From the NCBI GenBank assembly GCA_902606835.1, contig CACLHW010000004.1:12676-76675 (forward strand): a stretch of DNA of 64,000 nt, written 5' to 3'. The translations under genes and the position numbers were made by a program. Under the pieces are notes generated by a model that made no database searches, was not told where the DNA came from, and worked only from the letters and a program-made list of their open reading frames with translations. Source of the DNA: an uncultured Pelagibacteraceae bacterium. GTDB lineage: Bacteria; Pseudomonadota; Alphaproteobacteria; Pelagibacterales; Pelagibacteraceae. Of this stretch, positions 16,549 through 29,221 are shown piece by piece. How positions within the stretch are numbered: the first letter of the stretch is position 1; every line of letters starts with the position of its first letter.

Positions 16549-17085
16549 TTAAAAACCTTTATAAGTTTTTTTAAAATTTAAAAAAGTTCCCCATTGAGTA
16601 TCTCTTTTAGCAAGAATTGGTTTGTTTGTTGGCCATTTAAGCTTTATGCTTTTATCGTTCCATAAAATTCCACCTTCATATTTAGGTTGGTAATAATTTG
16701 AAAGTTTATAATAAATTAAATTTAACTTTGAGAAACTGTAGTAAGCGTGTCCAAAACCTTCAGGTATATATAGAGATTTACAATTATCCTCGGACAAAAT
16801 AATGCTAAAACTTTTACCAAATGTTTTTGATTTTTTTCTAAGATCAATAACACAGTCTAAAATTTTTCCTCTTAAAACCGTTACATATTTTGCTTGTGGG
16901 TATTTAGAATTGAAATGAAAACCTCTTAAAACATTTTTTTTTGATAAAGTGGCATAATCAAAAATTAAATCATCCCATTTTATAATTTTTTTTCTGAAAG
17001 TTTCTCTTAAAAACCCTCTAGAGTCACCGATTTTTTTTTGAATTATAATTTTTAAACCTTTAATTTTTGTATCTATTACACGCAT
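16549..17085 (-). CDS. rfbC: dTDP-4-dehydrorhamnose 3,5-epimerase
   Basis: 178 aa cupin with DSRGFLRETF, LRGFHF and IPEGFGHAY motifs. Confidence 0.85.
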   Translation of the reverse strand: MRVIDTKIKGLKIIIQKKIGDSRGFLRETFRKKIIKWDDLIFDYATLSKKNVLRGFHFNSKYPQAKYVTVLRGKILDCVIDLRKKSKTFGKSFSIILSEDNCKSLYIPEGFGHAYYSFSKLNLIYYKLSNYYQPKYEGGILWNDKSIKLKWPTNKPILAKRDTQWGTFLNFKKTYKGF

Positions 17086-17095
17086 AAATTATAAA

Positions 17096-17812: not shown

Positions 17813-18694
17813 TTATTTTTGATCTTTTTTAATCAAGGTTGATAAGTATTGTGAGTAATTACATTTTCCGTAAAATTTTATTGCATTTACTATATTTTTC
17901 TTATTAATCCATTTATTATTAAAAGCTATTTCTTCTAAGCATGCTATTTTAAGACCCTGTCTATTTTCTAAAGCCGATACGAAGGCTGATGTATTGTTAA
18001 AATCTTCAATAGAACCTGTATCCAGCCAAGCACCTCCACGACCAATAAAATTGGCTGAAAGTTTTTTTCTTTTTTTGTATTTATTTAATAAATCAACAAT
18101 TTCAACTTCTTTTCGTTTAGAAGGTTTAAGATTTTGACTATATTCAACAACTTTATTATCAAAGAAATAAAGTCCTGTTATCGCTAAATTGGAAAAATAC
18201 TTTTTTGGTTTTTCAACAATTTTTAATATTTTATTTTTTTTATTTATTTTTGCAATTCCATAAAGAGAGGGATTTTTTACAGGATGTAATAAAACATTAG
18301 CACCAGATTTTAGTTTAATACACTCTTTTAATCTATTTGTAAGACTTTGCCCGTAGAAAAAATTATCCCCTAAGATTAAGGCAACATTTTCTTTTCCAAT
18401 AAATTTTTTCCCTACAACAAAAGCATCGGGCAGACCCTTTGGATAAGATTGTTCAATATATGAAATTTTAATTCCCAAATTACTACCGTTTGGTAAAATT
18501 TTTTTAAACTGACTTAATTGTCCTTTATTAACTATAATTAATATATCTTTTATTCCTGATAACATTAAAATAGAGAGAGGGTAAAAAATTAAAGGTTTAT
18601 CGTAAATTGGTAGCAGCTGTTTATTTACAGCTTTTGTTATAGGACTCATCCTTGTACCAAAGCCTCCAGCTAAAATAATTCCTTTTTTAATCAT
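17813..18694 (-). CDS. rfbA: Glucose-1-phosphate thymidylyltransferase
   Basis: 293 aa with GIILAGGFGTRMSPIT, LGDNFFYG and the C-terminal RGGAWLDTG. Confidence 0.9.
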   Translation of the reverse strand: MIKKGIILAGGFGTRMSPITKAVNKQLLPIYDKPLIFYPLSILMLSGIKDILIIVNKGQLSQFKKILPNGSNLGIKISYIEQSYPKGLPDAFVVGKKFIGKENVALILGDNFFYGQSLTNRLKECIKLKSGANVLLHPVKNPSLYGIAKINKKNKILKIVEKPKKYFSNLAITGLYFFDNKVVEYSQNLKPSKRKEVEIVDLLNKYKKRKKLSANFIGRGGAWLDTGSIEDFNNTSAFVSALENRQGLKIACLEEIAFNNKWINKKNIVNAIKFYGKCNYSQYLSTLIKKDQK

Positions 18695-19707
18695 GTTTTT
18701 AATCCAAGTCTATTGACATAAAGTTTTTTAGAGACACTTTTAAAAAAATTTTTATTATTTAGATACCAATCAAAAGTTTGAACTAAACCTTTTTCTATTG
18801 ATATTTTCGCTTTCCAACCTAACTTTTTTTTAATTTTATTATTATTCAATGCATACCTGATATCATGGCCAGGTCTATCTTTTACAAATTTTATTTTTGT
18901 ATTACTATCAATATTTAAATATTTATTTTTTGCTATTTTTAGTAATTTTTGAGCAATATCTACGTTTTTAAGATTTATTCCTGATCCAATGTTATAATTT
19001 TCCCCAACTTTACCTTTTATAAAAATTAATAAAAGAGCCTCACAATGGTCTAGAACATGCATCCATTCTCTGGAATTTTTTCCTCTTCCATATATTGGCA
19101 ACGGTTTATTATTTATAATATTAAAAATTAATTTTGGTATTAATTTTTCAGGAAATTGATTGGGACCATAATTATTACAACAGTTAGAAATAACTGCCTG
19201 AATTTTATAAGTTCTTATATAAGCTTTAATTAGGTGATCTGCACTGGCTTTTGAAGATGAATAGGGAGAGCTTGGGTTATATGGATATTTTTCACTAGAT
19301 CTTCCTTTTAATATATCACCATAAACTTCATCAGTAGATATATGAATAAGTTTAATTTTTTTCTTATACGCCAGAATGGCTTCTAGTAAATTATAAGTTC
19401 CCAAAATATTACTATGGATAAAATTGTATGGTGTATCAATTGAACGATCTACGTGAGTTTCTGCAGCTAAATTAAAAATACCGCTTGGTTTATATTTTTT
19501 TAGAATTTGAGTAATTTTTTTTTTATTATTTAAATCAACTTTTATAAAAAGATAATTTTTATTTTTTTTTAAATCAGCAGTATTATAAGGATTTGCAGAA
19601 TATTTTAATGAATCTATATTAATTACGAAATATCTTTTACTTAATAAAAGTTTTACAAGATTACTTCCTATAAACCCAGAACCACCGGTAACTATTACCT
19701 TTTTCAT
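18691..19707 (-). CDS. rfbB: dTDP-glucose 4,6-dehydratase
   Basis: 338 aa with VTGGSGFIGSN, HISTDEVYGD and YSSSKA (YxxxK). It has a 4-nt overlap with rfbA. Confidence 0.9.
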   Translation of the reverse strand: MKKVIVTGGSGFIGSNLVKLLLSKRYFVINIDSLKYSANPYNTADLKKNKNYLFIKVDLNNKKKITQILKKYKPSGIFNLAAETHVDRSIDTPYNFIHSNILGTYNLLEAILAYKKKIKLIHISTDEVYGDILKGRSSEKYPYNPSSPYSSSKASADHLIKAYIRTYKIQAVISNCCNNYGPNQFPEKLIPKLIFNIINNKPLPIYGRGKNSREWMHVLDHCEALLLIFIKGKVGENYNIGSGINLKNVDIAQKLLKIAKNKYLNIDSNTKIKFVKDRPGHDIRYALNNNKIKKKLGWKAKISIEKGLVQTFDWYLNNKNFFKSVSKKLYVNRLGLKT

Positions 19708-19777: not shown

Positions 19778-20656
19778 ATGTCAATATCTGGGCAAAATTT
19801 ATCAATTGTAATAGTTACTTTAAAAAGTGAAAAAGTAATACATGACTGCATCAAATCGATTAATCTAAATTTACCAATAATTGTTGTCGAACAATCTAAA
19901 AACAGAAATTTTAAAGATGAACTTGAAAATAAGTATAAAAATTTGAAATGCATTCTTTCAAATTCAAATTTGGGTATGGGCTCTGGTAATAATATTGGTA
20001 TAAAAGCCGCTGATACTGACTATGTGATGATACTAAACCCTGACACAGTTTTAAAAAGCGATACTATTGAAGAACTTATATTTGCAGCAAAATCTTTACC
20101 AAATTTTGAAATTTTAGCACCTTTGGAAGAAGATTTTTCTAATTATGAAATTCATTCAAATAAAGAAAAGATAGATTTAAATTTAGATCAATCACCGTTC
20201 CAAGTCGATTATGTCGATGGATTTGCAATGTTATTAAATAAAAAGAAACTTAAAGACGAAGTGTATTTTGATAAAAATTTTTTTATGTATTTAGAAAATA
20301 ACGACCTATGTTTAAGAACAAGAAAAAATGGGGGCAAAATTTTTATTGCACCTAAATCGAGAATAAAACATTTAGCAGCAAAAGCCGTTGATGAAAAATT
20401 TAGTATTGAAGTTGAATATTCTAGAAACTGGCATTGGATTTGGTCAAAATTTTATTTTAATAAAAAACATTATGGTTATATTAAAGCACTAAAAGAATGT
20501 TTGCCGACCTATTTATCTTCAATGATAAAATTTATATTTTATTTTTTAATTAATAATAAAATGAAAAAAAAAATATATTTTAATAGAGCATCAGGTTTTT
20601 ATAATGCTTTTATCGGAAGATCTTCTTGGTATAGACCAACTATTCCTACGGACTAA
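19778..20656 (+). CDS. Family 2 glycosyltransferase
   Basis: 292 aa with the LSIVIVTLKSE start, NLGMGSGNNIG and MILNPDTVL (DxD-type region), typical of GT2 rhamnosyltransferase-like proteins. Confidence 0.75.
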   Translation: MSISGQNLSIVIVTLKSEKVIHDCIKSINLNLPIIVVEQSKNRNFKDELENKYKNLKCILSNSNLGMGSGNNIGIKAADTDYVMILNPDTVLKSDTIEELIFAAKSLPNFEILAPLEEDFSNYEIHSNKEKIDLNLDQSPFQVDYVDGFAMLLNKKKLKDEVYFDKNFFMYLENNDLCLRTRKNGGKIFIAPKSRIKHLAAKAVDEKFSIEVEYSRNWHWIWSKFYFNKKHYGYIKALKECLPTYLSSMIKFIFYFLINNKMKKKIYFNRASGFYNAFIGRSSWYRPTIPTD

Positions 20657-21192
20657 TGACCTGGAAAATCCATTATGCTAAAAGTTTTATAACCTTTGCT
20701 TTCAAGAGATTTTGTGCCTCCTAAATCAAAAAGATTAATAACAAAAATAAATCCAGAAACTTTTCCACCTGATTTTTGAACCAACTTTGCAGCTGCCTCA
20801 GCTGTACCACCTGTAGCTATTAAATCGTCAACAATAATTACCTTTTCATTAGTTTTGATAGAATCTTTGTGAACTTCTAATGTAGCTTTGCCATATTCTA
20901 ATTCAAAGTCTACAGAATATCTTTCAGCTGGCAATTTATTTTTTTTTCTAAACAAAGCATAAGGTTTATTTAAATTATATGCTAATGGAGAAGCAAAGAT
21001 AAAACCTCTAGATTCTATCGCAGCTATTTTATCAAAATTTAATTTAGTTAATGTTTTTGCCATTTCATCTATACAATTTTTGAATGCAACCTCATCTTTA
21101 ATTAAAGTAGTTATATCTCTAAATAAAATACCTTTTTTAGGATAATCAGGAATTGAACGTATATATTTCTTTAAATCCATTTTTTGCTTCAA
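20653..21192 (-). CDS. apt: Adenine phosphoribosyltransferase
   Basis: 179 aa with IPDYPKKGILFRDIT and the PRPP loop VIIVDDLIATGGTAEAA. Confidence 0.9.
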   Translation of the reverse strand: MKQKMDLKKYIRSIPDYPKKGILFRDITTLIKDEVAFKNCIDEMAKTLTKLNFDKIAAIESRGFIFASPLAYNLNKPYALFRKKNKLPAERYSVDFELEYGKATLEVHKDSIKTNEKVIIVDDLIATGGTAEAAAKLVQKSGGKVSGFIFVINLFDLGGTKSLESKGYKTFSIMDFPGH

Positions 21193-21228
21193 AGTTAATT
21201 AAAAAGATCATATTAATTATAATAAATT

Positions 21229-22104
21229 ATGACAAAAAACAAACTAGCAATTATAGGGGGGAGTGGACTTTATGATATAGAGGGGATGCAAAATCCAAAA
21301 TGGAAATCCATATCAACTCCTTGGGGAAAACCCTCTGATCAAATATTAAATTTAAAATATAAAGGAAAAGAAGTTTGTTTTTTACCTCGGCATGCAAGAG
21401 GACATAAAATTTCACCATCAAATATAAACTTTAGAGCTAACATTGATTCTTTAAAACAATTAGGAGTTACCGATATCGTCTCAGTATCTGCGGTCGGCTC
21501 TTTAAAAGAAGATTTGCCACCAGGAAAATTTGTAATAGTTGATCAATTTATAGATAGAACCTTTGCTAGAAAAAAAACTTTTTTTGATGAAGATATTGTT
21601 GCTCACGTTTCAATGGCTCACCCAACATCAAATGGTTTAATGAATGCGTGTGAAGAAGCAATAAAGAAAGAAAAAATTGATTATCAAAGAGGAGGCACCT
21701 ATGTAGTTATGGAAGGACCTCAATTTTCTACATTAGCAGAATCCAATTTATATAGATCATGGAAAGCAGATGTTATTGGAATGACAAATATGCCGGAAGC
21801 AAAATTAGCAAGAGAAGCAGAAATTAGATACGCATCTGTTTCAATGGTAACAGATTACGATTGCTGGCATCCTGATCATGAAAACGTTGATGTTCAGACA
21901 GTGATTAAAGTTTTATTAGGTAATGCTGAAAAAGCAAAAAATATGGTTAAAAATATTATTGAGAACTTTGAAAATCATATAGATCCTAAAGACCCAACAA
22001 ACAATTGCTTAGACGTAGCAATTATTACAGCTCCAGAAAAAAGAACTAAAAAAACAATTAAAAAATTAAAAACAGTAGCAGGAAGAGTTCTTCTAAAAAA
22101 ATGA
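21229..22104 (+). CDS. mtnP: S-methyl-5'-thioadenosine phosphorylase
   Basis: 291 aa with LAIIGGSGLYD, FLPRHARGH and VIGMTNMPEAKLAREAE, as in MTAP-type PNP-family enzymes. Confidence 0.85.
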   Translation: MTKNKLAIIGGSGLYDIEGMQNPKWKSISTPWGKPSDQILNLKYKGKEVCFLPRHARGHKISPSNINFRANIDSLKQLGVTDIVSVSAVGSLKEDLPPGKFVIVDQFIDRTFARKKTFFDEDIVAHVSMAHPTSNGLMNACEEAIKKEKIDYQRGGTYVVMEGPQFSTLAESNLYRSWKADVIGMTNMPEAKLAREAEIRYASVSMVTDYDCWHPDHENVDVQTVIKVLLGNAEKAKNMVKNIIENFENHIDPKDPTNNCLDVAIITAPEKRTKKTIKKLKTVAGRVLLKK

Positions 22105-23177
22105 AAATAGAAGGAAAAGAATATCGAACAATTTGGTTTGATGAAAAAAATCAAGCTGTAAAAATTATTGATCAAACAAAACTACCTCATCAATTTATAA
22201 TTAAAGATCTTAAAACAGTTAAAGATGCAATTAATGCTATAAAAATAATGGAGGTAAGGGGAGCGCCATTAATAGGTGGAACTGCTGCTTACGGTATTGT
22301 TTTAGCTATTATGGAAAAAAATGATCCTAATTTTATTAAGAAAAGTTCAGAAGAGCTAATTCAATCAAGACCAACGGCAATCAATCTAAAGTGGGCAGTT
22401 GATCGTATGATGAAGAAATTATCAGGGGTTAATAATAATGAATTACTAAAAGTAGCACTTGATGAAGCAAAAGCAATTTGTGAAGAGGATGTTAAGTTTT
22501 GTGAAAATATTGGGTTAAATGGATTAAAAATTATTGAAGAAATTTATAAAAAAAAGAAGGATAAAGTAAACATATTAACCCATTGTAATGCGGGTTGGCT
22601 TGCAACAATTAACTGGGGAACAGCAACATCTCCGATATATCACGCTCATAAAAAAGGAATTCCAGTTCATGTTTGGGTAGATGAGACAAGACCAAGAAAT
22701 CAAGGAGCCAATCTAACCTCATATGAATTAAACGAGGAAAAAATTCCTAATACAATTATCGCTGATAATACTGGTGGAATATTAATGCAAAGAGGTGAAG
22801 TAGATATGTGTATTGTTGGAACCGATAGAACTTTATCTACAGGCGATGTAGCAAACAAAATTGGAACTTATTTAAAAGCTTTAGCAGCTAAAGATAATAA
22901 TGTTCCTTTTTACGTAGCTTTACCTAGTTCAACAATTGATTGGGATATAGAGAATTTTAAAGATATTCCAATTGAAGAAAGAAACTCCGAAGAATTATCT
23001 CACGTTGAAGGTTTAGATGAAAATAATAAAGTAAAAAAAGTAAGAATTTATCCAAAAAAAAGTAAAGCAATGAATTTGGCTTTTGATGTTACTCCTGCCA
23101 AATATGTTACAGGATTAATAACCGAAAAAGGTACTTGTGAAGCATCCAAGGAGGGATTAAAAAAATTATTTAAATGA
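22101..23177 (+). CDS. mtnA: S-methyl-5-thioribose-1-phosphate isomerase
   Basis: 358 aa with IIDQTKLPH, MEVRGAPLIGGTAAYG, THCNAG and VDETRPRNQGA. It has an ATGA overlap with mtnP. Confidence 0.85.
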   Translation: MKIEGKEYRTIWFDEKNQAVKIIDQTKLPHQFIIKDLKTVKDAINAIKIMEVRGAPLIGGTAAYGIVLAIMEKNDPNFIKKSSEELIQSRPTAINLKWAVDRMMKKLSGVNNNELLKVALDEAKAICEEDVKFCENIGLNGLKIIEEIYKKKKDKVNILTHCNAGWLATINWGTATSPIYHAHKKGIPVHVWVDETRPRNQGANLTSYELNEEKIPNTIIADNTGGILMQRGEVDMCIVGTDRTLSTGDVANKIGTYLKALAAKDNNVPFYVALPSSTIDWDIENFKDIPIEERNSEELSHVEGLDENNKVKKVRIYPKKSKAMNLAFDVTPAKYVTGLITEKGTCEASKEGLKKLFK

Positions 23178-23512
23178 GTAATATTACAGCATATATAATT
23201 TTAATTATTGCTGTTGCTTTGGGCACAGCAGCAAATGGTTTTGCAAAAAGCGCACAAGGATTTACAATATTGATACCAAGCATTATCACAGCAATTACAA
23301 TTGTTTTATGTATGTTCACTTTATCGCTTGTAATGAAAGTTATTCCTGTCGGTATAACATATGCTTCGTTTGCTGGACTTTGTATTATAGCAACAGTTTT
23401 AGTTGGAGTTTTTAAATTTAATCAGACGCCTAATCTTTATACAAACATCGGATTAGCTTTAATTATTATAGGTGTATTGATGGTTAATTTGGTTGGTAAG
23501 ACTAATAATTAA
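23174..23512 (+). CDS. SMR-family (EmrE/SugE-like) four-helix membrane protein, atypical (no acidic residues)
   Basis: 112 aa with four hydrophobic segments and the SMR TM3 signature IPVGITYASFAG. It has an ATGA overlap with mtnA. The position of the conserved TM1 Glu is Val (IAVALGT). Confidence 0.7.
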   Translation: MSNITAYIILIIAVALGTAANGFAKSAQGFTILIPSIITAITIVLCMFTLSLVMKVIPVGITYASFAGLCIIATVLVGVFKFNQTPNLYTNIGLALIIIGVLMVNLVGKTNN

Positions 23513-23720
23513 AATGAAAAAAATTATTCCAAAAGTAATTTTTATTGTAGTTGCTATCGTTCTTATTTATTTTCTTAAAACAAATTTTGCTGAATATAAT
23601 ATAGAAAAATCTATTTCAGCATGTGTTTTAGGTGAAAAGAGAACGACGGAATCTTTTGATTTAAAAAAAGCTCAAAAATATTGTGAAGAAGAGATTAGAA
23701 AACAGAAAAAAGGCGATTAG
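23493..23720 (+). CDS. Hypothetical small membrane-anchored protein
   Basis: 75 aa with one N-terminal TM segment (IIPKVIFIVVAIVLIYFL) and a Cys pair in the soluble tail. It overlaps the SMR gene by 20 nt. I recognise no family. Confidence 0.35.
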   Translation: MVRLIIKMKKIIPKVIFIVVAIVLIYFLKTNFAEYNIEKSISACVLGEKRTTESFDLKKAQKYCEEEIRKQKKGD

Positions 23721-23721
23721 T

Positions 23722-25782
23722 TTATCTTAACGACGCAGCTATATTTCCCCCATCAACAGTAAGAACAGCTCCAGTAGTTTTTTTAGAAGTAGCTAAATGA
23801 AAAAAAGCTTTAGCAACATCTTCAGCTTTTACTTCATTTAATAATAAATTTCCTTTCATATAGTCACTAGTACTTACCGCTCTTGCTTTTGCTCTAGTTT
23901 TAATCATTTTGTCTGTCATTAATCCGCTTCTTATTCTGTCAGCATTTACTCCATTAGATCTAATTCCATAAGATCCATAATCAACAGCGTATTGTTTGCA
24001 TAAACTTAGCAAGGCTGATTTAGGTAAACCATAAGGACCGAAATTTTTTCCGGGATTTACAGATTGTTTTGAAATATTAAAAAGAAGACAACCATTAGTA
24101 TTTTGTTTTTTCATTATTTTAACAGCTTCAGAAGCACAATTTTGATGTGAGAAGAAATTAATTTCAAAACTTTTTCTTAATAGCTCGTCACTTACTTCAC
24201 CTATAGATCCACCAGGAGCTGTACCTGCGTTTGAAATTAAAATATCAATTCCACCAAATTTTTCACAGATTTGATTAAAAGCTTTTTTCACACTTTTTTT
24301 ACTTGTTACATCACAATGTATACAAAGATCTTTAATTTTTGATTGCACTTCTTTCAAACGTTCTAAATTATTATCAAGTAGAATAACTTCAGCTCCATAA
24401 CTTTTAAACATTTTATAAGTTTCGAAACCTATAGTTCCAGTACTTCCTGTAACCACAACAACATTGCCTTCAAGAAGTTTTTTCTTCTTTTTTATTTTTG
24501 CCTGTTCTAAAGACCAATATTCAACATCAAACAGGTCTTTTTCTGGAATAAATTTGTAACTAGATGTTTCTTCAACGGAAGAAATTACTCTAGCATTAGT
24601 TTCAGTTAAATCTCCAGCAATTTTTGCTGCATTTAAATCTTTGCCAACACTAAACATGCCAACATTTTGTACTAAAACAACTCTTGGAGAGGTGTCTAGC
24701 ATCACTTTTTTTTCTTTAGTTTTTCTATGATTTACATTGAAATAATGAATATATTTTTTACGATAATTTTCAAAAGCTTTTTTTGCTATTTTTCTAAATT
24801 CTTCTACTGAAGAATTTTTTTTAGGAGTAATTATTAATGGAAATGGTTTTACTCTAATTACGTGATCAGGTGTAGCGGTGCCTTTTGATGAATAGGCTCT
24901 AACATTTTTTCCATTTATGAAATATTTTAGATGTTTATTAAGTCTATAATTAATAACAAATTTTTGATCTTTATTTTCAGATAAAAGACCTCGTATTATT
25001 GGGGCCACTTCATGAGGGTTAAATTTTGGAGAAAATTTTTTAATTTGTTTAATTTTTTTACTTTTTAATTTTTTAATAGTATTTTCAGCTTTTGAAACAT
25101 ACTTTATCATCAAATCGTAAGCTTCTTTGCAATCATTAGCAAAAGTAAAGATTCCATGGTTCATTAATATTAAGCAATTTATTTTTGGATTTTTAGAATA
25201 AACCTCATTGATTTTTTTCGCTAACATGAAACCCGGCATTACATATGGTACTATACTAACTTTATTTCCAAATATTTTTTTGCATAAATTTAATCCACCG
25301 GGTCTATTTGTTATATTAAGCACAGCATCAGCATGAGTATGGTCTACATATTTAAAAGGCAAGAAGGCATGCAAAAATGTTTCAACTGAAGGATTTGGTG
25401 ATTTTATATCAATCAGATTTCTTTTTTGATATGCAACCATATCTTCATCAGATAAATATTTTTTATTTTTTAGAGCTAGCAAAGGGTCTAATTTAACTGC
25501 AGGAAGACCAGGTGGCTCAATATCTGCCATGTCCCAACCACTTCCCTTTACACATAAAACTCTATATTTTTTTCCATCAATATCTTTAATTGTAGTTTTG
25601 ACAGAAGTATTTCCTCCACCATGTAATACTAACTCTTTGTTTCTACCTAGTAGCCGCGTTGTATAAACTCTAAGTGCTAAATCAGCAGAAAATCCAAGCT
25701 TTTCGTACTTTTTTATATATTTTTTTGCAATTTTTTTTGACCAATTATTTTTCAAAATTAAACTCCATAAACTTATTAACAA
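23722..25782 (-). CDS. Bifunctional class II aldolase/adducin-domain + short-chain dehydrogenase fusion (rhamnulose-1-phosphate aldolase/alcohol dehydrogenase-like)
   Basis: 686 aa. The N-terminal half has the class II aldolase pattern (LHGGGNTSVK ... DHTHADAVL ... MNHGIFTF). The C-terminal half is an SDR (VVVTGSTGTIGFE, NAGTAP, YGLPKSA). The start is TTG in the track and may lie up to 9 codons downstream. Confidence 0.8.
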   Translation of the reverse strand: MLISLWSLILKNNWSKKIAKKYIKKYEKLGFSADLALRVYTTRLLGRNKELVLHGGGNTSVKTTIKDIDGKKYRVLCVKGSGWDMADIEPPGLPAVKLDPLLALKNKKYLSDEDMVAYQKRNLIDIKSPNPSVETFLHAFLPFKYVDHTHADAVLNITNRPGGLNLCKKIFGNKVSIVPYVMPGFMLAKKINEVYSKNPKINCLILMNHGIFTFANDCKEAYDLMIKYVSKAENTIKKLKSKKIKQIKKFSPKFNPHEVAPIIRGLLSENKDQKFVINYRLNKHLKYFINGKNVRAYSSKGTATPDHVIRVKPFPLIITPKKNSSVEEFRKIAKKAFENYRKKYIHYFNVNHRKTKEKKVMLDTSPRVVLVQNVGMFSVGKDLNAAKIAGDLTETNARVISSVEETSSYKFIPEKDLFDVEYWSLEQAKIKKKKKLLEGNVVVVTGSTGTIGFETYKMFKSYGAEVILLDNNLERLKEVQSKIKDLCIHCDVTSKKSVKKAFNQICEKFGGIDILISNAGTAPGGSIGEVSDELLRKSFEINFFSHQNCASEAVKIMKKQNTNGCLLFNISKQSVNPGKNFGPYGLPKSALLSLCKQYAVDYGSYGIRSNGVNADRIRSGLMTDKMIKTRAKARAVSTSDYMKGNLLLNEVKAEDVAKAFFHLATSKKTTGAVLTVDGGNIAASLR

Positions 25783-25844
25783 GGTATTTTTAGTTGTAAA
25801 AAATAAAATAACAAGTTAAAAAAAAGTATCGAGTCGATAAAAAA

Positions 25845-26888
25845 ATGAAAAAAGTTGGAGAACACGTTACGATAGATTTTTTAGGTGTTAAACAGGATTA
25901 TTCTCCTGAATTTTACAATAAAGTTATCTATAAAATTGCCAAAAAAACCAGAGTAGAAGTTATTAATATTGCTGAAAAGGTGTTTAAACCTCAAGGATAT
26001 ACGTGCGTTGCACTTTTGGCAGAAAGCCACATGAGTTTTCACACTTTTCCAGAAAAAGGAATAATTAGTTTTGATTTTTTCACTTGTGCAAAAATTTCAC
26101 CAACAGCAGCGCTAGATATATTAAAAAAAGAGATTAAGCATGAAAGAGCTGTAGTAAGAAATTTTGATAGAAGTAATAAAGGTGTATATGAAGATATATA
26201 TAGTACACCAGGCCATCAAAAATATTATGTTGTTAATGATGTTTTAGAAAATTTTATATCAAAAGTAGGGCAGCATATTGAAATAATGAAATTAGAAGAA
26301 TTTGGAAATGCTTTATTTATAGATAGTGAATTGCAAGTCGCAGAGAAAGATGAAAAGAAATATAGTGGACAATTTGTTAATTCTGCACTTAGTTTATCAA
26401 AAGAAAATTCAAATGCAGCTATAATTGGTGGTGGAGATGGTGGTGTAGCAAGGGAATGTTTGTCAAAAGGGTTTGATTTAATTGATTGGTTTGAGCTAGA
26501 TCCCGAAGTGGTTAAAGTTTGTCAAAAACATCTCCCTAAAATCTGTGGAGAAGTTAAAGCTAATAATAATGTAAAAACATGTTGGGGAGATGCTTTCGAG
26601 AGTATTAAAAAAGTGAAAGACTCAAAATATGATAAAATTTTTGTAGATCTTAATGACGATCAGTTTTGCATAGATCTTGCAGCAAGAAATATGAAAAGTT
26701 TAAAAAGAATTCTAAAACCTGGTGGAGTTATAACTGCTCAAGTCGGAACTGTATCTAAAAAACCAAGACAGGTTAACAACTGGTTAAAAGTTCTTGACCA
26801 GAATTTTGGAAATGTAAAATTAGACGAAGCTTTAATACCAAGCTTTGATTGTCGTTGGAATTTTGCGTCTTCTATAATGAAATCCTAA
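25845..26888 (+). CDS. Fusion protein: pyruvoyl-dependent S-adenosylmethionine decarboxylase (N-terminal) + spermidine synthase-type aminopropyltransferase (C-terminal)
   Basis: 347 aa. Residues 1 to about 110 match small bacterial AdoMetDC, including the self-cleavage site LLAE/SHMSFHTFPE (Ser61 codon at 26025-26027). Residues from about 130 to the end carry IIGGGDGGVAREC, ELDPEVV and DKIFVDLND of spermidine synthases. Confidence 0.75.
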   Translation: MKKVGEHVTIDFLGVKQDYSPEFYNKVIYKIAKKTRVEVINIAEKVFKPQGYTCVALLAESHMSFHTFPEKGIISFDFFTCAKISPTAALDILKKEIKHERAVVRNFDRSNKGVYEDIYSTPGHQKYYVVNDVLENFISKVGQHIEIMKLEEFGNALFIDSELQVAEKDEKKYSGQFVNSALSLSKENSNAAIIGGGDGGVARECLSKGFDLIDWFELDPEVVKVCQKHLPKICGEVKANNNVKTCWGDAFESIKKVKDSKYDKIFVDLNDDQFCIDLAARNMKSLKRILKPGGVITAQVGTVSKKPRQVNNWLKVLDQNFGNVKLDEALIPSFDCRWNFASSIMKS

Positions 26889-26972
26889 ATAATTCAACTA
26901 TTTCACGTATTAATTTTTCTGGAATAATCTTTTTTTTAACCCTACTATTATAATTATTTATAAAGGGGGAAT

Positions 26973-27803
26973 ATGAAAAACATATTTAAATTTTTCCTAT
27001 CTTCTATTGCTGCGTTAATGATATTTTTTTCAAGCGCGCAAGCAGATAGTATTAGAATAGGAACAGAAGGGGCTTACCCACCATGGAATGCAAAAGATGA
27101 GTCAGGAAAGTTAATTGGTTTTGAAGTTGAACTTGCTAATTGGCTTTGCATTTATATGGGAGCTGATTGTACTTTAGTCGAACAAGACTGGGACGGAATG
27201 ATTCCTGGATTGATTATGAGAAAGTATGATGCAATCATGGCCGGAATGTCTATTACCGACGAAAGAATGAAAACAATCAACTTTTCACAAGGTTATGCAG
27301 ATGAAGTTGCTTCTTTAGCAGTAATGAAGGGATCATCTCTTGAAGGAATGGATACTCCTAAAGCTATAAATTTATCTACAGGTGGTGGAGATGTTAAAAA
27401 AGCTTTAAAAACTTTAACAGCTGCACTTGCAGGAAAAACTATTGGTGTTCAAACAGCAACAATTCACCAAAATTTTTTAGAGTCCGGAGATGTTGGAAGT
27501 GTAAAAGTTAGAACTTACAAAACTCAAGACGAAGTAAATTTAGATTTGGCTGCTGGAAGAATAGATGCTGCTTTAGCTGCAGCAGTTGCTTTTACTGATT
27601 ATGCTGAAAAATCTGGAAAACCAGTTGTACTTGTTGGTCCAACTTTTTCTGGAGGAGCATTTGGTAATGGTGTTGGAGTAGGTATTAGAAAAGATGATAC
27701 TGATCTTTTAAAAAGATTTAACAACGCTATTAATAAAGCAAGAAAAAATGGAAAAATTAGCGAATTAGCCATCAAGTGGTTTGGCTTTGACGCTTCAATG
27801 TAA
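26973..27803 (+). CDS. ABC transporter periplasmic substrate-binding protein, polar amino acid/opine family (HisJ/ArgT/OccT-like)
   Basis: 276 aa with signal peptide ...IFFSSAQA. Family-3 SBP motifs are IRIGTEGAYPPW and DAIMAGMSITDER. A strong SD (AAGGGGGAA) precedes the ATG. Confidence 0.85.
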   Translation: MKNIFKFFLSSIAALMIFFSSAQADSIRIGTEGAYPPWNAKDESGKLIGFEVELANWLCIYMGADCTLVEQDWDGMIPGLIMRKYDAIMAGMSITDERMKTINFSQGYADEVASLAVMKGSSLEGMDTPKAINLSTGGGDVKKALKTLTAALAGKTIGVQTATIHQNFLESGDVGSVKVRTYKTQDEVNLDLAAGRIDAALAAAVAFTDYAEKSGKPVVLVGPTFSGGAFGNGVGVGIRKDDTDLLKRFNNAINKARKNGKISELAIKWFGFDASM

Positions 27804-27816
27804 TAGTTTAATTTTT

Positions 27817-27843
27817 AAGGCGATAGTTTAAGTCTATCGCCTT
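27817..27843 (+). promoter_or_regulatory. Intercistronic stem-loop between the binding-protein and permease genes
   Basis: Perfect 10-bp inverted repeat AAGGCGATAG / CTATCGCCTT with a 7-nt loop (TTTAAGT). There is no downstream U-tract, so it is more likely an mRNA-stabilising or attenuating hairpin than a full terminator. Confidence 0.5.
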
Positions 27844-27850
27844 AAAATCT

Positions 27851-28543
27851 ATGGGACTTTTAGCTTACGGAGATACAGGTTGGGGAGACGAGCTTTTTTT
27901 TGCAACTCTCATGACTATTGCCGTTGCAGCAGCAGCAATATTCATAGGATTTTTTTTAGCTGCAATTTTTGCTTCGTTCAAACTATCAAAAATAAAAATA
28001 TTAAATTTAATAGGAAGTTTTTATACTACTGTATTTAGAGGGGTTCCTGAACTTTTAGTAATATATCTATTTTTTTTTGGCGGTAGTGGCGCAGTAATGT
28101 ATGTAGCAAGAATTTTTGGATATGATGGATATATTGAAGTTAATGCTTTTTTAACTGGAGCTTTTTCTATAGGTATAATATCCGGAGCATACTCTACTGA
28201 AGTATTTCGAGGTGCAATTCAATCAATCAATAAAGGCCAATTTGAAGCTTCAAAAGTTTTGGGTTTTAAAAAGAAAATTTACTATTACAAAATAATAATT
28301 CCACAAATGTTAAGATTGGCATTACCCAATATAAGTAATGTCTGGCAAATTACTTTAAAAGATACATCATTGATTTCTGTAACAGGTCTAGTTGAAATCA
28401 TGAGACAATCTTATATTGCTGCGGGCTCTACAAGAGATCCATTATTTTTCTATTCGTTTGCTGCAGTTTTATATTTGTTTTTAACTTTTTTAAGTATGAG
28501 AATATTTAATAAATTAGAAAAATATTACAGTAGAGGATATTAG
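27851..28543 (+). CDS. ABC transporter permease (HisQ/OccQ-like)
   Basis: 230 aa, polytopic, with the polar amino acid permease pattern FRGVPELLVIYLFFFG. Confidence 0.85.
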   Translation: MGLLAYGDTGWGDELFFATLMTIAVAAAAIFIGFFLAAIFASFKLSKIKILNLIGSFYTTVFRGVPELLVIYLFFFGGSGAVMYVARIFGYDGYIEVNAFLTGAFSIGIISGAYSTEVFRGAIQSINKGQFEASKVLGFKKKIYYYKIIIPQMLRLALPNISNVWQITLKDTSLISVTGLVEIMRQSYIAAGSTRDPLFFYSFAAVLYLFLTFLSMRIFNKLEKYYSRGY

Positions 28544-29221
28544 ATGGACTTAGTTTTTGCTTTAGAAAACTTCCCAAGGTTATTAAAAGCCACAATATTG
28601 ACCATTGAATTAACCTTTCTCTCACTATTCTTTGGTATATTTGTAGGTGTTTTCTTTGCTATTTTAAGAGCAAGCAAAATAAAAATACTTTTTTTTATAT
28701 CTTACTACTATTCATATATTTTCAGAGGCACTCCACTATTAGTTCAAATTTTTATAATATATTTTGGTCTTGCTCAGTTAGAATGGATTAGAGAATCTTT
28801 TCTTTGGATTGTTTTAAAAGAACCTTATTCATGCGCTATTATTGCGTTTACACTTAATACAGGGGCTTATTCTTCAGAAATTTTTAGATCTGCTTTTGAA
28901 ACCATAAATAAAGGTATTGTTGAAGCTGCAGAAAGTTTAGGTCTAAATAAAATAAATACTTTTTTAAGAATCAAATTACCAATAGCAATAAGGCAATCGT
29001 TACCAGCTTATGGAAACGAAATGATATTAATGTTGAAAGGAACTTCTTTAGCTAGCACTGTTACCTTGCTAGATCTCACTGGTGTTGCAAAACACATTAT
29101 ATCTACCACTTTCAGACCTGTAGAAGTTTTTATTGTTGCCGGAAGTATATATCTGATAATTACTTTTATAATTCACAATATAATTAAATTTCTAGAAAAA
29201 AAATATAGCTTTAATAGCTAG
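28544..29221 (+). CDS. ABC transporter permease (HisM/OccM-like)
   Basis: 225 aa with FRGTPLLVQIFIIYFG and a SLGL...RIKLP EAA-like loop. It starts immediately after the previous stop. Confidence 0.85.
   Translation: MDLVFALENFPRLLKATILTIELTFLSLFFGIFVGVFFAILRASKIKILFFISYYYSYIFRGTPLLVQIFIIYFGLAQLEWIRESFLWIVLKEPYSCAIIAFTLNTGAYSSEIFRSAFETINKGIVEAAESLGLNKINTFLRIKLPIAIRQSLPAYGNEMILMLKGTSLASTVTLLDLTGVAKHIISTTFRPVEVFIVAGSIYLIITFIIHNIIKFLEKKYSFNS

What the first reader, a model, noticed from the sequence alone, without database searches (positions are those of the whole stretch)
21229..25782. mtnP-mtnA next to a fused class II aldolase/SDR: candidate DHAP-shunt-type salvage of methylthioadenosine and 5'-deoxyadenosine
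mtnP (MTA phosphorylase) and mtnA (MTR-1-P isomerase) are translationally coupled. The canonical downstream methionine-salvage genes (mtnB dehydratase, mtnC enolase-phosphatase, mtnD dioxygenase) are absent from the neighbourhood. Instead, the convergent neighbour is a 686-aa fusion of a class II aldolase domain to a short-chain dehydrogenase, the rhamnulose-1-P aldolase/lactaldehyde dehydrogenase architecture. In the DHAP shunt described for Rhodospirillum rubrum and some E. coli, a class II aldolase cleaves methylthioribulose-1-P (or 5-deoxyribulose-1-P) into DHAP plus methylthioacetaldehyde (or acetaldehyde), and a dehydrogenase then processes the aldehyde. A fused aldolase-dehydrogenase would perform both steps. 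The surrounding genes fit this reading. The speD-speE fusion makes MTA, apt recycles the adenine released by MtnP, and a radical SAM enzyme that produces 5'-deoxyadenosine is also in the window. No rhamnose catabolic genes (rhaA, rhaB, transporter) are nearby to support the default rhamnose annotation.
Basis: inference. Interest (0 to 1): 0.7.

Follow-up and report, generated by a model that had tools for sequence, protein, structure and literature searches.

The report
Fused aldolase-dehydrogenase linked to methylthioadenosine salvage
A SAR11-type genome keeps a fused aldolase-dehydrogenase beside the first two methylthioadenosine-recycling genes, and many other bacteria put all three in one operon, so the enzyme, usually mislabelled as a rhamnose gene, probably disposes of this by-product of S-adenosylmethionine use.

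Summary
The window holds apt(-), then mtnP-mtnA-SMR(+) with ATGA stop/start overlaps at both junctions. A class II aldolase/SDR fusion (-) converges on these, and a speD-speE fusion (+) diverges from it. The fusion's start supported by homologues gives 677 aa, not 686.

The fusion passes the generic NCBIfam model NF006192 and fails the rhamnose-specific TIGR02632. Its aldolase domain is RhaE-type, not FucA/Ald2-type.

- In 25 of 72 species-level loci with enough upstream flank, mtnA lies directly upstream on the same strand (median gap 11 bp, six overlaps). It is often part of mtnP-(apt)-mtnA-fusion.
- About half of the 80 loci have mtn genes within 10 kb.
- SAR11 proteins group with two mtnA-adjacent relatives in 185 of 200 bootstraps.
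- SAR324 and Lambdaproteobacteria place the gene near speD-speE.
- No rhamnose genes or FucA-type aldolases occur in 97 sequences, and a true RhaEW sits in a rha locus.

Caveats:
- Half of the loci show no linkage.
- Rhizobiaceae plasmid paralogues sit in a glycerol-phosphate/sugar cluster.
- Absence of mtnB, mtnC and mtnD from the genome could not be tested.
- No biochemistry exists for this subfamily.

Verdict: a probable fused, non-orthologous DHAP-shunt variant. Confidence is about 0.55 for this mechanism and about 0.8 for some functional link to MTA/5'-deoxyadenosine salvage.

The parts
20653..21192 (-). apt, adenine phosphoribosyltransferase. It recycles the adenine released by MtnP and is divergent from mtnP across 36 bp.
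   Evidence: NF002634 223.1 bits (cutoff 170). apt lies between mtnP and mtnA in 15 related loci. It is conserved next to mtnP in four other SAR11 contigs.
21229..22104 (+). mtnP, 5'-methylthioadenosine phosphorylase (MTA to adenine plus MTR-1-P). Enzymes of this family are known to accept 5'-deoxyadenosine as well.
   Evidence: NF006492 462.7 bits (cutoff 437) and TIGR01694 316 bits (cutoff 275). Pfam PNP_UDP_1.
22101..23177 (+). mtnA, methylthioribose-1-phosphate isomerase (MTR-1-P to MTRu-1-P). It is translationally coupled to mtnP through an ATGA overlap.
   Evidence: TIGR00512 416.5 bits (cutoff 279). The overlap was read directly.
23174..23512 (+). SMR-family small membrane transporter, third gene of the mtnP-mtnA operon (ATGA overlap with mtnA). 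It occupies a variable slot: other SAR11 genomes carry ECH_1, CoA_binding_2 and sometimes GFA here instead.
   Evidence: Pfam Multi_Drug_Res 53.6 bits. It is below every NCBIfam cutoff. Overlap read. Slot variation seen.
23513..23721 (.). 209-bp convergent intergenic region between the end of the mtnP-mtnA-SMR operon and the end of the fusion gene.
   Evidence: No terminator-like site lies within this region: both terminator-like sites found in 21100-25950 lie elsewhere, and their number (2) matches the shuffled expectation (1.8). No Rfam match.
23722..25755 (-). Bifunctional class II aldolase / short-chain dehydrogenase, 677 aa from the TTG at 25755 (the mechanical ORF extends to 25782). It belongs to subfamily NF006192. 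Proposed role: MTRu-1-P / 5-deoxyribulose-1-P aldolase plus NAD-dependent (methylthio)acetaldehyde dehydrogenase.
   Evidence: NF006192 890.9 bits (cutoff 639); TIGR02632 458.3 bits, below its cutoff of 567.75. AlphaFold model pLDDT 89.2, pTM 0.88. Synteny. Phylogeny.
25093..25668 (-). Aldolase_II domain (residues 39-230 of the 686-aa ORF). In 677-aa numbering the catalytic Glu is E125 (PSVET) and the metal-binding His residues are H139 and H141 (DHTH) and H200 (NHG).
   Evidence: Pfam PF00596 83.5 bits. These residues are invariant or nearly invariant across the family. The closest solved structure is 3m4r: E 3e-53, TM 0.93. FucA, RhaD and the MtnB-like 2irp give only marginal matches.
24475..25092 (-). 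Middle region of about 200 aa with no Pfam assignment. It is well conserved across the family (for example TPDHVIR and EYWSLEQAK) and confidently modelled.
   Evidence: No Pfam hit. Invariant columns. pLDDT is mostly 85-97 in this stretch.
23725..24474 (-). Classical SDR domain. It has the glycine-rich motif TGSTGTIG, an Asp at the end of beta-2 (D461, predicting NAD(H)), and the catalytic S562, Y575 and K579.
   Evidence: Pfam adh_short_C2 131.7 bits and adh_short 121.6 bits. Motifs and clade comparison. Structural matches to NAD(H)-dependent SDRs with TM 0.8-0.9.
25756..25844 (.). 89-bp divergent intergenic region shared by the fusion gene and speD-speE. It presumably holds both promoters.
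   Evidence: Read. The promoter scan was not above shuffled expectation. No riboswitch was found.
25845..26888 (+). speD-speE fusion: S-adenosylmethionine decarboxylase plus an aminopropyltransferase. It is the cell's source of MTA.
   Evidence: Pfam AdoMet_dc 82.2 bits and Spermine_synth 86.4 bits. TIGR03330 87.5 bits (cutoff 75.65). It is adjacent to the fusion in all five SAR11 contexts. Separate speD and speE genes lie 2-5 kb from the fusion in SAR324 and Lambdaproteobacteria.

Best explanation
The 677-aa protein belongs to a distinct subfamily (NCBIfam NF006192) of the RhaEW-type aldolase/short-chain-dehydrogenase fusions. This subfamily has been recruited to the salvage of 5'-deoxynucleoside by-products of S-adenosylmethionine.

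Proposed pathway:
1. SpeD-SpeE (and radical SAM enzymes) produce MTA (and 5'-deoxyadenosine).
2. MtnP phosphorolyses these to adenine, which Apt recycles, plus MTR-1-P (or 5-deoxyribose-1-P).
3. MtnA isomerises that product to MTRu-1-P (or 5-deoxyribulose-1-P).
4. The N-terminal metal-dependent class II aldolase domain of the fusion cleaves the ketose-1-phosphate into DHAP plus 2-(methylthio)acetaldehyde (or acetaldehyde).
5. The C-terminal NAD-dependent SDR domain converts the reactive aldehyde at once. By analogy with RhaW it most likely oxidises it to 2-(methylthio)acetate (or acetate). Reduction to the alcohol is the alternative.

This is a fused, non-orthologous equivalent of the Ald2 + 'putative alcohol dehydrogenase' steps of the DHAP shunt.

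Shown here: gene identities, operon structure, subfamily membership, conserved catalytic residues, conserved gene linkage.
Inferred: substrate, cleavage chemistry, direction of the redox step.
For: (1) Linkage outside SAR11. In 80 species-representative loci at 47-54% identity, mtnA is found in 37, mtnP in 30 and apt in 15. Of 72 loci with at least 1.2 kb upstream, 25 have mtnA immediately upstream on the same strand. The median stop-to-start distance is 11 bp, 19 of 25 are 26 bp or less, and 6 overlap by 4-8 nt. A random single-copy gene would fall within 10 kb in about 0.5% of genomes.

(2) The arrangements differ: mtnP-mtnA-F, mtnP-apt-mtnA-F, mtnP-F, uvrC-mtnA-F in a Thiotrichaceae MAG, mtnA downstream, and unrelated inserts between the genes. 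Linkage has therefore survived rearrangement. A cultured strain, Tistrella mobilis pTM3, has mtnP-mtnA-F.

(3) SAR11 keeps apt, mtnP-mtnA, the fusion and speDE together in five genomes, although the block borders a hypervariable region.

(4) SAR11 proteins group with L018 and L021, both mtnA-adjacent, in 185 of 200 bootstraps, and nest inside the core clade in 200 of 200.

(5) There is an independent link to MTA production. The fusion is divergent from speD-speE in SAR11, and speD-speE lie 2-5 kb away in SAR324 and Lambdaproteobacteria.

(6) It is not RhaEW: TIGR02632 scores 458.3, below the 567.75 cutoff. The RhaEW clade is separate in 200 of 200 bootstraps. No rha genes of the E. coli or Rhizobium type occur in 97 sequences, whereas a true RhaEW sits in a rha locus.

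(7) The fusion is the only class II aldolase in these neighbourhoods.

(8) The catalytic Glu and His triad, the SDR Ser-Tyr-Lys and the NAD-type Asp are all conserved. 14 of the 20 positions that discriminate it from RhaEW lie in the SDR substrate region.

(9) RhaEW enzymes of the same architecture do cleave a 1-phospho-ketose to DHAP plus an aldehyde and oxidise that aldehyde with NAD+ (PMC3870299). The DHAP shunt's dehydrogenase is still unidentified (PMC5893883).
Against: No enzyme of the NF006192 subfamily has been assayed, so substrate and chemistry are inference.

About half of the 80 loci, including a whole Reyranella subclade, have no mtn gene within 10 kb.

Much of the linked set shares a conserved alphaproteobacterial housekeeping neighbourhood (petABC upstream; prs, rplY, pth and ychF downstream). 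Part of the synteny may therefore be inherited gene order.

Rhizobiaceae plasmid paralogues at 44-46% identity sit in a glycerol-phosphate/sugar-ABC cluster, and their position relative to the core clade is unresolved (73 of 200).

Contexts in Elusimicrobia, Polyangiales and the P0126 clade show no link.

In SAR11 the gene is convergent with mtnA, not co-transcribed with it.

RhaE cleaves a (3R,4S) substrate, whereas D-ribulose-type substrates are (3R,4R). The known MTRu-1-P and 5-dRu-1-P aldolases (Ald2, DrdA) are FucA-like, and this domain is not.

Two Arg residues specific to the clade in the SDR substrate loop (R607, R609) could indicate an anionic substrate rather than a small neutral aldehyde.

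Genome-wide absence of mtnB, mtnC and mtnD in SAR11 was not tested. One preprint calls methionine salvage 'complete' in Pelagibacter without defining the gene set.
Confidence: 0.55

Rival explanations
1. Inherited neighbourhood, unrelated function. The fusion would be a housekeeping or catabolic enzyme for some other phosphorylated sugar or polyol that yields DHAP, as suggested by the Rhizobiaceae paralogues in glycerol-phosphate/sugar-ABC clusters. Its position beside mtnA would be a relic of an ancestral alphaproteobacterial gene order with no metabolic meaning.
For: The same flanking housekeeping genes recur: petABC in 19 loci, and ychF, prs, rplY and pth downstream. Half of the loci lack mtn genes. 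Plasmid paralogues sit with glpD, G1P/G3P dehydrogenases, a HAD hydrolase and a sugar ABC transporter, and their placement outside the core is unresolved. Deep-branch members show no mtn or spe context.
Against: Stop/start overlaps and gaps of 26 bp or less in 19 of 25 pairs indicate co-translation, not mere proximity. Linkage persists in different flanks (uvrC-mtnA-F in a gammaproteobacterial MAG, a Tistrella megaplasmid) and through the SAR11 rearrangement. The separate association with speD-speE in SAR11, SAR324 and Lambdaproteobacteria cannot be inherited alphaproteobacterial order. apt, mtnP and mtnA are themselves functionally related, so the block is a functional unit.
Confidence: 0.17
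2. MtnB-like chemistry rather than aldol cleavage. The class II aldolase-fold domain would dehydrate (or epimerise or isomerise) MTRu-1-P as MtnB does, and the SDR domain would reduce or oxidise the resulting keto intermediate. This would be an undescribed, non-DHAP branch of methionine salvage that retains the carbon skeleton.
For: MtnB, AraD epimerase and several decarboxylases share this fold and the same Glu/His3 site, so the motifs cannot discriminate between them. The second-best profile hit in the PDB is the Aquifex class-2 aldolase 2irp, E 0.005. SAR11 depends on reduced sulfur (PMC5069961), so keeping the sulfur on a methionine precursor would be advantageous. Two conserved Arg residues in the SDR substrate loop could bind a phosphate.
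Against: The nearest characterised relatives with the same three-part architecture (RhaEW) are true aldolases coupled to an aldehyde dehydrogenase. No MtnC-, MtnD- or MtnW/X-like partner appears in any of 97 contexts by motif search. The matches to 2irp, FucA and RhaD are all marginal.
Confidence: 0.1
3. The default annotation is right. The protein would be a rhamnulose-1-phosphate aldolase / lactaldehyde dehydrogenase (RhaEW) used for L-rhamnose or another 6-deoxyhexose.
For: It has the same domain architecture and 30-32% identity to RhaEW-type proteins. JGI pipelines name relatives 'rhamnose utilization protein RhaD'. dTDP-rhamnose genes are nearby in the window.
Against: It is below the TIGR02632 and NF006189 cutoffs. 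It forms a separate clade from RhaEW in 200 of 200 bootstraps. No rhaA/B/D/M/S/T or rhaI/K/M homologues occur in the window or 96 loci, while the control RhaEW sits inside a rha locus, and the literature reports RhaEW orthologues always in rha loci (PMC3870299). The nearby rfb genes are biosynthetic, not catabolic.
Confidence: 0.03

Closest known systems
DHAP shunt (MtnP or MtnN/MtnK, MtnA, Ald2, plus an unidentified alcohol dehydrogenase) of Rhodospirillum rubrum, Rhodopseudomonas palustris and ExPEC E. coli; also the DrdK-DrdI-DrdA 5-deoxyribose pathway of Bacillus thuringiensis
   Same: Both begin with MtnP and MtnA. In both, a class II aldolase-fold gene clusters with mtnA, often in one operon. 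The predicted products are the same: DHAP plus a C2 aldehyde that is then processed by a dehydrogenase. Both would handle MTA and 5'-deoxyadenosine.
   Different: The aldolase is not an Ald2/DrdA (FucA-like) orthologue. FucA gives only a marginal match to it (E about 0.03), and the DrdA and APIP/MtnB structures assumed to be in the PDB copy gave no match at all. The dehydrogenase is covalently fused, whereas in the known shunt it is separate and unidentified. The fused SDR is predicted to use NAD, and by analogy with RhaW it may oxidise the aldehyde to the acid rather than reduce it to methylthioethanol. No biochemical evidence exists.
RhaEW (YuxG of Bacillus subtilis, Caur_2283 of Chloroflexus aurantiacus; TIGR02632): L-rhamnulose-1-phosphate aldolase fused to L-lactaldehyde dehydrogenase
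   Same: The three-part architecture is the same (aldolase II, a conserved middle region of about 200 aa, and an SDR). Identity is 30-32% over the full length. The catalytic Glu/His3 and Ser-Tyr-Lys are conserved, as is the NAD-type Asp.
   Different: It scores below the equivalog cutoff and forms a separate clade. It is never found in rha loci (against control). 14 of 20 clade-discriminating positions lie in the SDR substrate region, including N533/L, H537/Y, Q538/F, R607/A and R609/G. The genomic partners are mtnP, mtnA, apt and speDE instead of rhaA/I, rhaB/K and rhaM.
PDB 3m4r, N-terminal class II aldolase domain of an uncharacterised Thermoplasma acidophilum protein
   Same: It is the closest solved structure: 43% identity, E 3e-53, target-normalised TM-score 0.93. 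It shares the PSVETFLHAFLP and H-x-H motifs.
   Different: Only the isolated N-terminal domain was solved. It has no assigned function and comes from an archaeon. It says nothing about substrate.
MtnB (methylthioribulose-1-phosphate dehydratase; human APIP, B. subtilis MtnB)
   Same: It acts on the product of MtnA, has the class II aldolase fold and uses a metal site. It would occupy the same pathway position.
   Different: Sequence similarity is at most marginal (Aquifex 2irp E 0.005; APIP not detected). MtnB is not fused to an SDR. MtnB works with MtnC and MtnD, and none was seen near any of the loci.

Membership tests
NF006192 (PRK08324.1-6) bifunctional aldolase/short-chain dehydrogenase | Whole-protein score at or above the curated cutoff of 639 bits | tested here: met
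   890.9 bits. The mtn-linked L063 (1008.7) and L057 (1023.9) and the unlinked L011 (1039.1) also pass.
RhaEW (TIGR02632 / NF006189) | Whole-protein score at or above the curated equivalog cutoff (567.75 / 634 bits) | tested here: not met
   458.3 and 428.9 bits. The genuine RhaEW-type proteins P0208 and P0255 score 865 and 768.
RhaEW (TIGR02632 / NF006189) | Fused Aldolase_II + SDR architecture with intact catalytic residues | tested here: met
   Pfam domains. E125, H139, H141, H200, S562, Y575, K579 and D461 are conserved.
RhaEW (TIGR02632 / NF006189) | Encoded within a rhamnose-utilisation locus (rhaA/rhaI, rhaB/rhaK, rhaM, transporter, regulator), as reported for all orthologues (PMC3870299) | tested here: not met
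   No homologues of the E. coli or Rhizobium rha genes in the window or 96 loci. The positive control on pRL11 shows the expected locus.
RhaEW (TIGR02632 / NF006189) | Cleaves L-rhamnulose-1-P and oxidises L-lactaldehyde with NAD+ | not testable with these tools
   This needs an enzyme assay.
DHAP shunt (MtnP/MtnK-MtnA-Ald2) | MTA phosphorylase (or nucleosidase + kinase) and MTR-1-P isomerase are present and clustered | tested here: met
   mtnP and mtnA pass their equivalog cutoffs and overlap by 4 nt.
DHAP shunt (MtnP/MtnK-MtnA-Ald2) | The aldolase is an Ald2/DrdA-type (FucA-like) class II aldolase, EC 4.1.2.62 | tested here: not met
   The domain is RhaE-type. FucA 2opi scores E 0.027-0.029 and RhaD E 2.2, and no match to DrdA or APIP was found in the PDB. 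No FucA-like gene occurs in the window or loci.
DHAP shunt (MtnP/MtnK-MtnA-Ald2) | The aldolase gene is genomically associated with mtnA/mtnP | tested here: met
   Adjacent and convergent in SAR11. Directly downstream of mtnA in 25 of 72 loci, with a median gap of 11 bp. Also in Tistrella pTM3.
DHAP shunt (MtnP/MtnK-MtnA-Ald2) | Converts MTRu-1-P / 5-dRu-1-P to DHAP plus (methylthio)acetaldehyde | not testable with these tools
   This needs an enzyme assay or labelled-MTA feeding.
DHAP shunt (MtnP/MtnK-MtnA-Ald2) | The organism lacks the canonical downstream enzymes (MtnB, MtnC or MtnW/X, MtnD), so the shunt is the route taken | not testable with these tools
   Only the 64-kb window and flanks of 10 kb or less were available. 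No ARD or MtnC motif was found there (a weak test).
Canonical methionine salvage, MtnB dehydratase | Recognisable sequence similarity to MtnB/APIP and co-occurrence with MtnC/MtnD | tested here: not met
   APIP was not detected, and the Aquifex 2irp match is marginal at E 0.005. No MtnC or MtnD motifs occur in any locus.

The most novel reading that the evidence does not exclude
NF006192 would be a previously unrecognised enzyme family: a single-polypeptide MTRu-1-P / 5-deoxyribulose-1-P aldolase plus (methylthio)acetaldehyde dehydrogenase. It would replace both Ald2 and the still-unidentified dehydrogenase of the DHAP shunt. It would be the main fate of MTA and 5'-deoxyadenosine in SAR11 and in many soil and aquatic Alphaproteobacteria that lack MtnB, MtnC and MtnD. 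Because the SDR is NAD-type and its RhaW relative only oxidises, the product would be 2-(methylthio)acetate rather than 2-(methylthio)ethanol. That would add an unreported organosulfur metabolite, possibly exported by the co-transcribed SMR or processed by the alternative ECH/CoA-binding/GFA genes, to the sulfur economy of the ocean's most abundant bacterium, which depends on reduced sulfur.
Probability: 0.3. Interest if true: 0.8.

Novelty: new variant of a known kind. Interest (0 to 1): 0.66.

Why it matters
Every cell that makes polyamines or uses radical SAM enzymes must remove MTA and 5'-deoxyadenosine. [quoted passage not shown]

If the assignment holds, four things follow:
1. It gives a function to a large protein family, present in SAR11, Bradyrhizobium, Reyranella, Rhodospirillales, SAR324 and others. 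That family is now annotated generically or wrongly as 'rhamnose utilization protein RhaD'.
2. It supplies a candidate for the missing dehydrogenase step of the DHAP shunt.
3. It shows a second, independent recruitment of a class II aldolase lineage to MTRu-1-P cleavage.
4. It predicts a specific sulfur-containing product (methylthioacetate or methylthioethanol) that bears on marine organosulfur and methanethiol cycling.

The hypothesis is directly testable with a recombinant enzyme and with a cultured strain that carries the contiguous mtnP-mtnA-fusion cluster (Tistrella mobilis).

Tried and rejected
- **Riboswitch or other RNA control.** Rfam at gathering threshold over the whole window found only a tRNA. 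A permissive scan of 20400-27100 found only a chance SprX match, E 3.5. No SAM riboswitch is present.
- **Promoter and terminator scan of 21100-25950.** It found fewer promoter-like sites than in shuffled sequence and terminator-like sites at the chance rate, so it was uninformative.
- **Exact look-up of the window protein's 100% match (P0001).** Not on record.
- **Literature.** Six of ten searches turned up no paper linking SAR11 or the fused enzyme to the DHAP shunt or to MTA fate. One further attempt was rejected for syntax. A preprint says methionine salvage is 'complete' in Pelagibacter but gives no KO list, so it could not be used either way.
- **Motif search for MtnD (ARD) and MtnC in all loci and the window.** Nothing was found, but a regex is a weak test.
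- **Refutation test through R. palustris.** The question was whether RPA4819, next to mtnA, is an NF006192 member. The last protein search, seeded with a Bradyrhizobium-type protein, returned only Bradyrhizobium-like sequences at 87-91% identity, so the test is inconclusive.
- **Greedy ORF calling in high-GC loci.** It produced spurious antisense ORFs (for example clusters 4, 11 and 17). Only clusters with clear identities were used.
- **Rejected idea: the nearby rfbCDAB genes support a rhamnose role.** They make dTDP-L-rhamnose for cell-surface polysaccharide and lie in the known hypervariable glycosyltransferase region.

Full report
**What is in the window.**
- apt, 20653-21192(-): NF002634 223 bits, cutoff 170.
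- mtnP, 21229-22104(+): NF006492 462.7 bits, cutoff 437.
- mtnA, 22101-23177(+): TIGR00512 416.5 bits, cutoff 279.
- An unmentioned 112-aa SMR-family transporter, 23174-23512(+).
- A convergent class II aldolase/short-chain dehydrogenase fusion, 23722-25782(-).
- A divergent speD-speE fusion, 25845-26888(+).

The mtnP/mtnA and mtnA/SMR junctions are both ATGA stop/start overlaps, so these three genes form one translationally coupled operon. All close homologues of the fusion are 677-679 aa. The family consensus MKNRWSD aligns with MKNNWSKK starting at the TTG at 25755. The protein is therefore 677 aa, and the gap to speD-speE is 89 bp. G+C content is about 29%, and the nearest relatives are named Candidatus Pelagibacter.

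A radical SAM protein is present at 15004-16515(-). It lies in a glycosyltransferase/rfb region and has no specific tie to the cluster.

**What the fusion is by sequence and structure.**
Pfam finds Aldolase_II (residues 39-230) and adh_short/adh_short_C2 (residues 440-679). About 200 conserved residues between them have no assignment.

NCBIfam places the protein in NF006192, 'bifunctional aldolase/short-chain dehydrogenase' (890.9 bits, cutoff 639). It falls below the cutoffs of the rhamnose-specific models TIGR02632 (458.3 against 567.75) and NF006189 (428.9 against 634).

The aldolase domain is a divergent lineage of the class II aldolase superfamily. As a single sequence or as a profile it matches only one solved structure well. 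That is 3m4r, the N-terminal domain of an uncharacterised Thermoplasma protein (E 3e-53 and 8e-70). The Aquifex 2irp, FucA and RhaD matches are marginal (E 0.005, 0.03 and 2.2), and DrdA and APIP/MtnB are not detected.

An AlphaFold model built on 44 sequences is confident (pLDDT 89.2, pTM 0.88). Its N-terminal domain superposes on 3m4r (TM 0.93) and its C-terminal domain on NAD(H)-dependent classical SDRs (TM 0.8-0.9). No full-length structure of this architecture has been solved.

The catalytic Glu (E125), the three metal-binding His residues (H139, H141, H200), the SDR Ser-Tyr-Lys (S562, Y575, K579), the glycine-rich motif and the Asp at the end of beta-2 (D461) are all invariant or nearly so. 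That Asp favours NAD over NADP.

**Comparative genomics, the main new evidence.**
A scan of one genome per GTDB species returned 80 loci whose fusion is 47-54% identical to the window protein. Most are from non-SAR11 Alphaproteobacteria. tblastn with the window's own proteins found mtnA in 37 loci, mtnP in 30 and apt in 15.

Of the 72 loci with at least 1.2 kb upstream, 25 have mtnA immediately upstream on the same strand. The distance from the mtnA stop to the fusion start has a median of 11 bp. It is 26 bp or less in 19 of 25 pairs, and in six pairs the genes overlap by 4-8 nt.

The arrangements vary:
- mtnP-mtnA-fusion
- mtnP-apt-mtnA-fusion
- mtnP-fusion
- uvrC-mtnA-fusion in a Thiotrichaceae MAG
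- mtnA downstream of the fusion
- mtnP-mtnA separated from the fusion by unrelated inserts (carbonic anhydrase, aquaporin, a diguanylate cyclase)

A cultured strain, Tistrella mobilis KA081020-065, carries mtnP-mtnA-fusion contiguously on megaplasmid pTM3.

Four further SAR11 contigs keep apt, mtnP-mtnA, the fusion and speD-speE together, although the block abuts a hypervariable glycosyltransferase region. The slot after mtnA varies between an SMR gene and an ECH_1/CoA_binding_2(/GFA) set.

**Phylogeny.**
On NJ trees of about 190 family members, the mtn-linked loci are spread through one large clade that corresponds to NF006192. RhaEW-type proteins (which pass TIGR02632) and an NF006194 clade are distant.

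In a 61-taxon bootstrap:
- The SAR11 proteins group with L018, L021, P0125 and P0128 in 185 of 200 replicates. L018 and L021 have mtnA directly upstream, at 23 bp and a 4-nt overlap.
- The SAR11 group nests within the core clade in 200 of 200 replicates.
- The RhaEW group is monophyletic and separate in 200 of 200 replicates.

**An independent link to MTA production.**
Outside the Alphaproteobacteria, the SAR324 and Lambdaproteobacteria homologues lie 2-5 kb from separate speD and speE genes. This echoes the divergent speD-speE neighbour in SAR11. Inherited alphaproteobacterial gene order cannot explain this association.

**Controls.**
No homologue of E. coli rhaA/B/D/M/S/T, or of Rhizobium rhaI/rhaK/rhaM, occurs in the window or in any of the other 96 sequences. 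The only hits were non-specific matches to sugar-binding proteins.

A plasmid-borne RhaEW-type gene (about 31% identical) in R. leguminosarum pRL11 sits inside a textbook rha locus with rhaI, rhaM, rhaS, a kinase and a DeoR regulator. This matches the literature statement that RhaEW orthologues are always in rha loci (PMC3870299).

No FucA/RhaD-type stand-alone aldolase is present in any of these neighbourhoods. The fusion is the only class II aldolase next to mtnA.

**Caveats that limit the claim.**
- About half of the 80 loci, including a whole Reyranella subclade in which a TauD-like dioxygenase follows the gene, have no mtn gene within 10 kb.
- Many linked loci share a conserved housekeeping neighbourhood: petABC upstream, and prs, rplY, pth and ychF downstream. 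Some of the synteny is therefore inherited rather than independently selected.
- Rhizobiaceae plasmids carry paralogues at 44-46% identity in a cluster with glpD, glycerol-1-P and glycerol-3-P dehydrogenases, a HAD hydrolase and a sugar ABC transporter. These are monophyletic (200 of 200), but their position relative to the core is unresolved (73 of 200). The clade therefore contains at least one lineage with a different context.
- Contexts in Elusimicrobia, Polyangiales and the P0126 clade are uninformative.
- In SAR11 itself the fusion is convergent with the mtn operon, not part of it.
- Stereochemistry is an open point, from established knowledge. RhaD/RhaE-type enzymes cleave (3R,4S) ketose-1-phosphates, whereas ribulose-type substrates are (3R,4R). 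The known MTRu-1-P and 5-dRu-1-P aldolases are FucA-like (PMC6079011).
- Genome-wide absence of mtnB, mtnC and mtnD could not be tested.
- The attempt to use published R. palustris mutant data as a refutation test failed, because I could not establish whether that organism has the gene.

**Mechanism proposed.**
SpeD-SpeE and radical SAM enzymes generate MTA and 5'-deoxyadenosine. MtnP releases adenine, which Apt recycles, and a pentose-1-phosphate. MtnA makes the ketose-1-phosphate. The aldolase domain of the fusion cleaves it to DHAP and (methylthio)acetaldehyde or acetaldehyde. The SDR domain then removes the reactive aldehyde.

Of the 20 positions conserved within, but different between, the NF006192 and RhaEW clades, 14 lie in the SDR substrate region. 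This is what one expects if the aldehyde differs while the overall chemistry is kept.

RhaW oxidises lactaldehyde with NAD+ and shows no reductase activity (PMC3870299), and the NAD-type Asp is conserved. I therefore favour oxidation to methylthioacetate or acetate, but this direction is inference. The DHAP-shunt literature still lists its dehydrogenase as 'putative' (PMC5893883). None of the six completed literature searches found a paper linking this fusion or SAR11 to the shunt.

**Verdict.**
Its interpretation is substantially strengthened but not proven. The gene is not a rhamnose gene. It is very probably (about 0.8) tied functionally to MTA/5'-deoxyadenosine salvage. It probably (about 0.55) acts as a fused, non-orthologous equivalent of Ald2 plus the shunt's dehydrogenase.

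By descent it belongs to the RhaEW-like superfamily, subfamily NF006192. By function it would be an analogue, not a member, of the Ald2-based DHAP shunt. I rate it a new variant of a known kind, with interest 0.66.

Noticed in passing
window 16549-19707 (and 13024-14981, 19778-20656, 29640-31664): A complete dTDP-L-rhamnose biosynthesis set lies about 1 kb from apt: rfbC 16549-17085, rfbD-like 17096-17812, rfbA 17813-18694 and rfbB 18691-19707. It sits among glycosyltransferases (GT61, DUF4422, GT2, GT9). These genes are anabolic cell-surface genes of the SAR11 hypervariable/O-chain region. They could wrongly appear to support the 'rhamnose' annotation of the fusion.
   Followed up: partly
L081 10042-11297 and L083 9061-10721 (SAR11 contigs); equivalent slot in the window is 23174-23512: The position after mtnA in the SAR11 operon is a variable slot. 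This window, L082 and L084 have an SMR transporter there. L081 and L083 instead have an enoyl-CoA hydratase family gene (ECH_1, 261 aa) followed by CoA_binding_2 (156 aa), and L083 also has a GFA-family gene. A crotonase in an mtn operon recalls DmdD, which SAR11 lacks. It might act on a methylthio-acyl-CoA derived from the pathway's product. This is speculative.
   Followed up: partly
L081 12367-13545: In one SAR11 genome a 392-aa ORF with no Pfam hit is inserted between mtnP and mtnA on the same strand.
   Followed up: no
L097 7001-8251 (Sinorhizobium meliloti pSymB): A 417-aa homologue (42% identity) has the aldolase and middle regions but no SDR domain. It is the last gene of the lsr operon for autoinducer-2 uptake and phosphorylation (lsrK, a regulator, lsrACDB). 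So another member of this aldolase lineage is associated with a phosphorylated C5 by-product of SAM metabolism that is known to end as DHAP plus a C2 unit.
   Followed up: no
L093 and L094 (R. leguminosarum pRL1, Agrobacterium salinitolerans pAtCFBP5507a), fusion at 8001-10049: Plasmid paralogues at 44-45% identity sit in a conserved cluster. The cluster holds sn-glycerol-1-phosphate dehydrogenase, a HAD-IIB hydrolase, glpD, a sugar ABC transporter, an SDR, ugpC and a second glycerol-3-phosphate dehydrogenase. This suggests a different, unknown phosphosugar or polyol substrate that also yields a triose phosphate.
   Followed up: partly
L011, L022, L041, L044, L047, L051 (Reyranella and relatives), immediately downstream of the fusion: In the subclade that has lost mtn linkage, a gene for a protein of about 310 aa lies immediately downstream of the fusion on the same strand (from a 25-nt overlap to 57 bp in most loci, 491 bp in L022). 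I read it by eye as TauD/TfdA-family dioxygenase-like and did not run a family scan on it. Its function and its relation to the fusion are unknown.
   Followed up: no
L086 2962-4268 and L087 271-1595: In SAR324 and Lambdaproteobacteria MAGs, separate speD and speE genes lie 2-5 kb upstream of the fusion, with a UbiA-family prenyltransferase between them. No mtnP or mtnA lies within 6 kb.
   Followed up: partly
L001-L080, upstream of mtnP: In 19 loci the cytochrome bc1 genes (Rieske protein, cytochrome b, cytochrome c1) lie just upstream of mtnP-(apt)-mtnA-fusion. ychF, pth, rplY and prs recur downstream. This is a conserved alphaproteobacterial housekeeping neighbourhood and must be discounted when synteny is read as functional evidence.
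   Followed up: yes
window 26973-29221: A polar amino-acid-type ABC transporter (an SBP_bac_3 binding protein and two BPD_transp_1 permeases) follows speD-speE on the same strand in the window and in all four other SAR11 contigs. No ATPase gene lies directly adjacent.
   Followed up: no
window 15004-16515 (-): A 503-aa radical SAM protein (CPFSCSYC motif, Pfam Radical_SAM 57 bits) is embedded in the glycosyltransferase region. It is probably a sugar- or surface-modifying enzyme rather than a partner of the salvage cluster.
   Followed up: partly
bioRxiv 10.64898/2026.04.03.716430 (literature): A 2026 preprint on 135 Pelagibacter genomes scores 'methionine salvage' as at least 98% complete, using KofamScan with thresholds relaxed to 0.75x. 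It does not list the KOs. If the canonical KEGG module was meant, relaxed thresholds might have counted this fusion as MtnB. This should be checked.
   Followed up: partly
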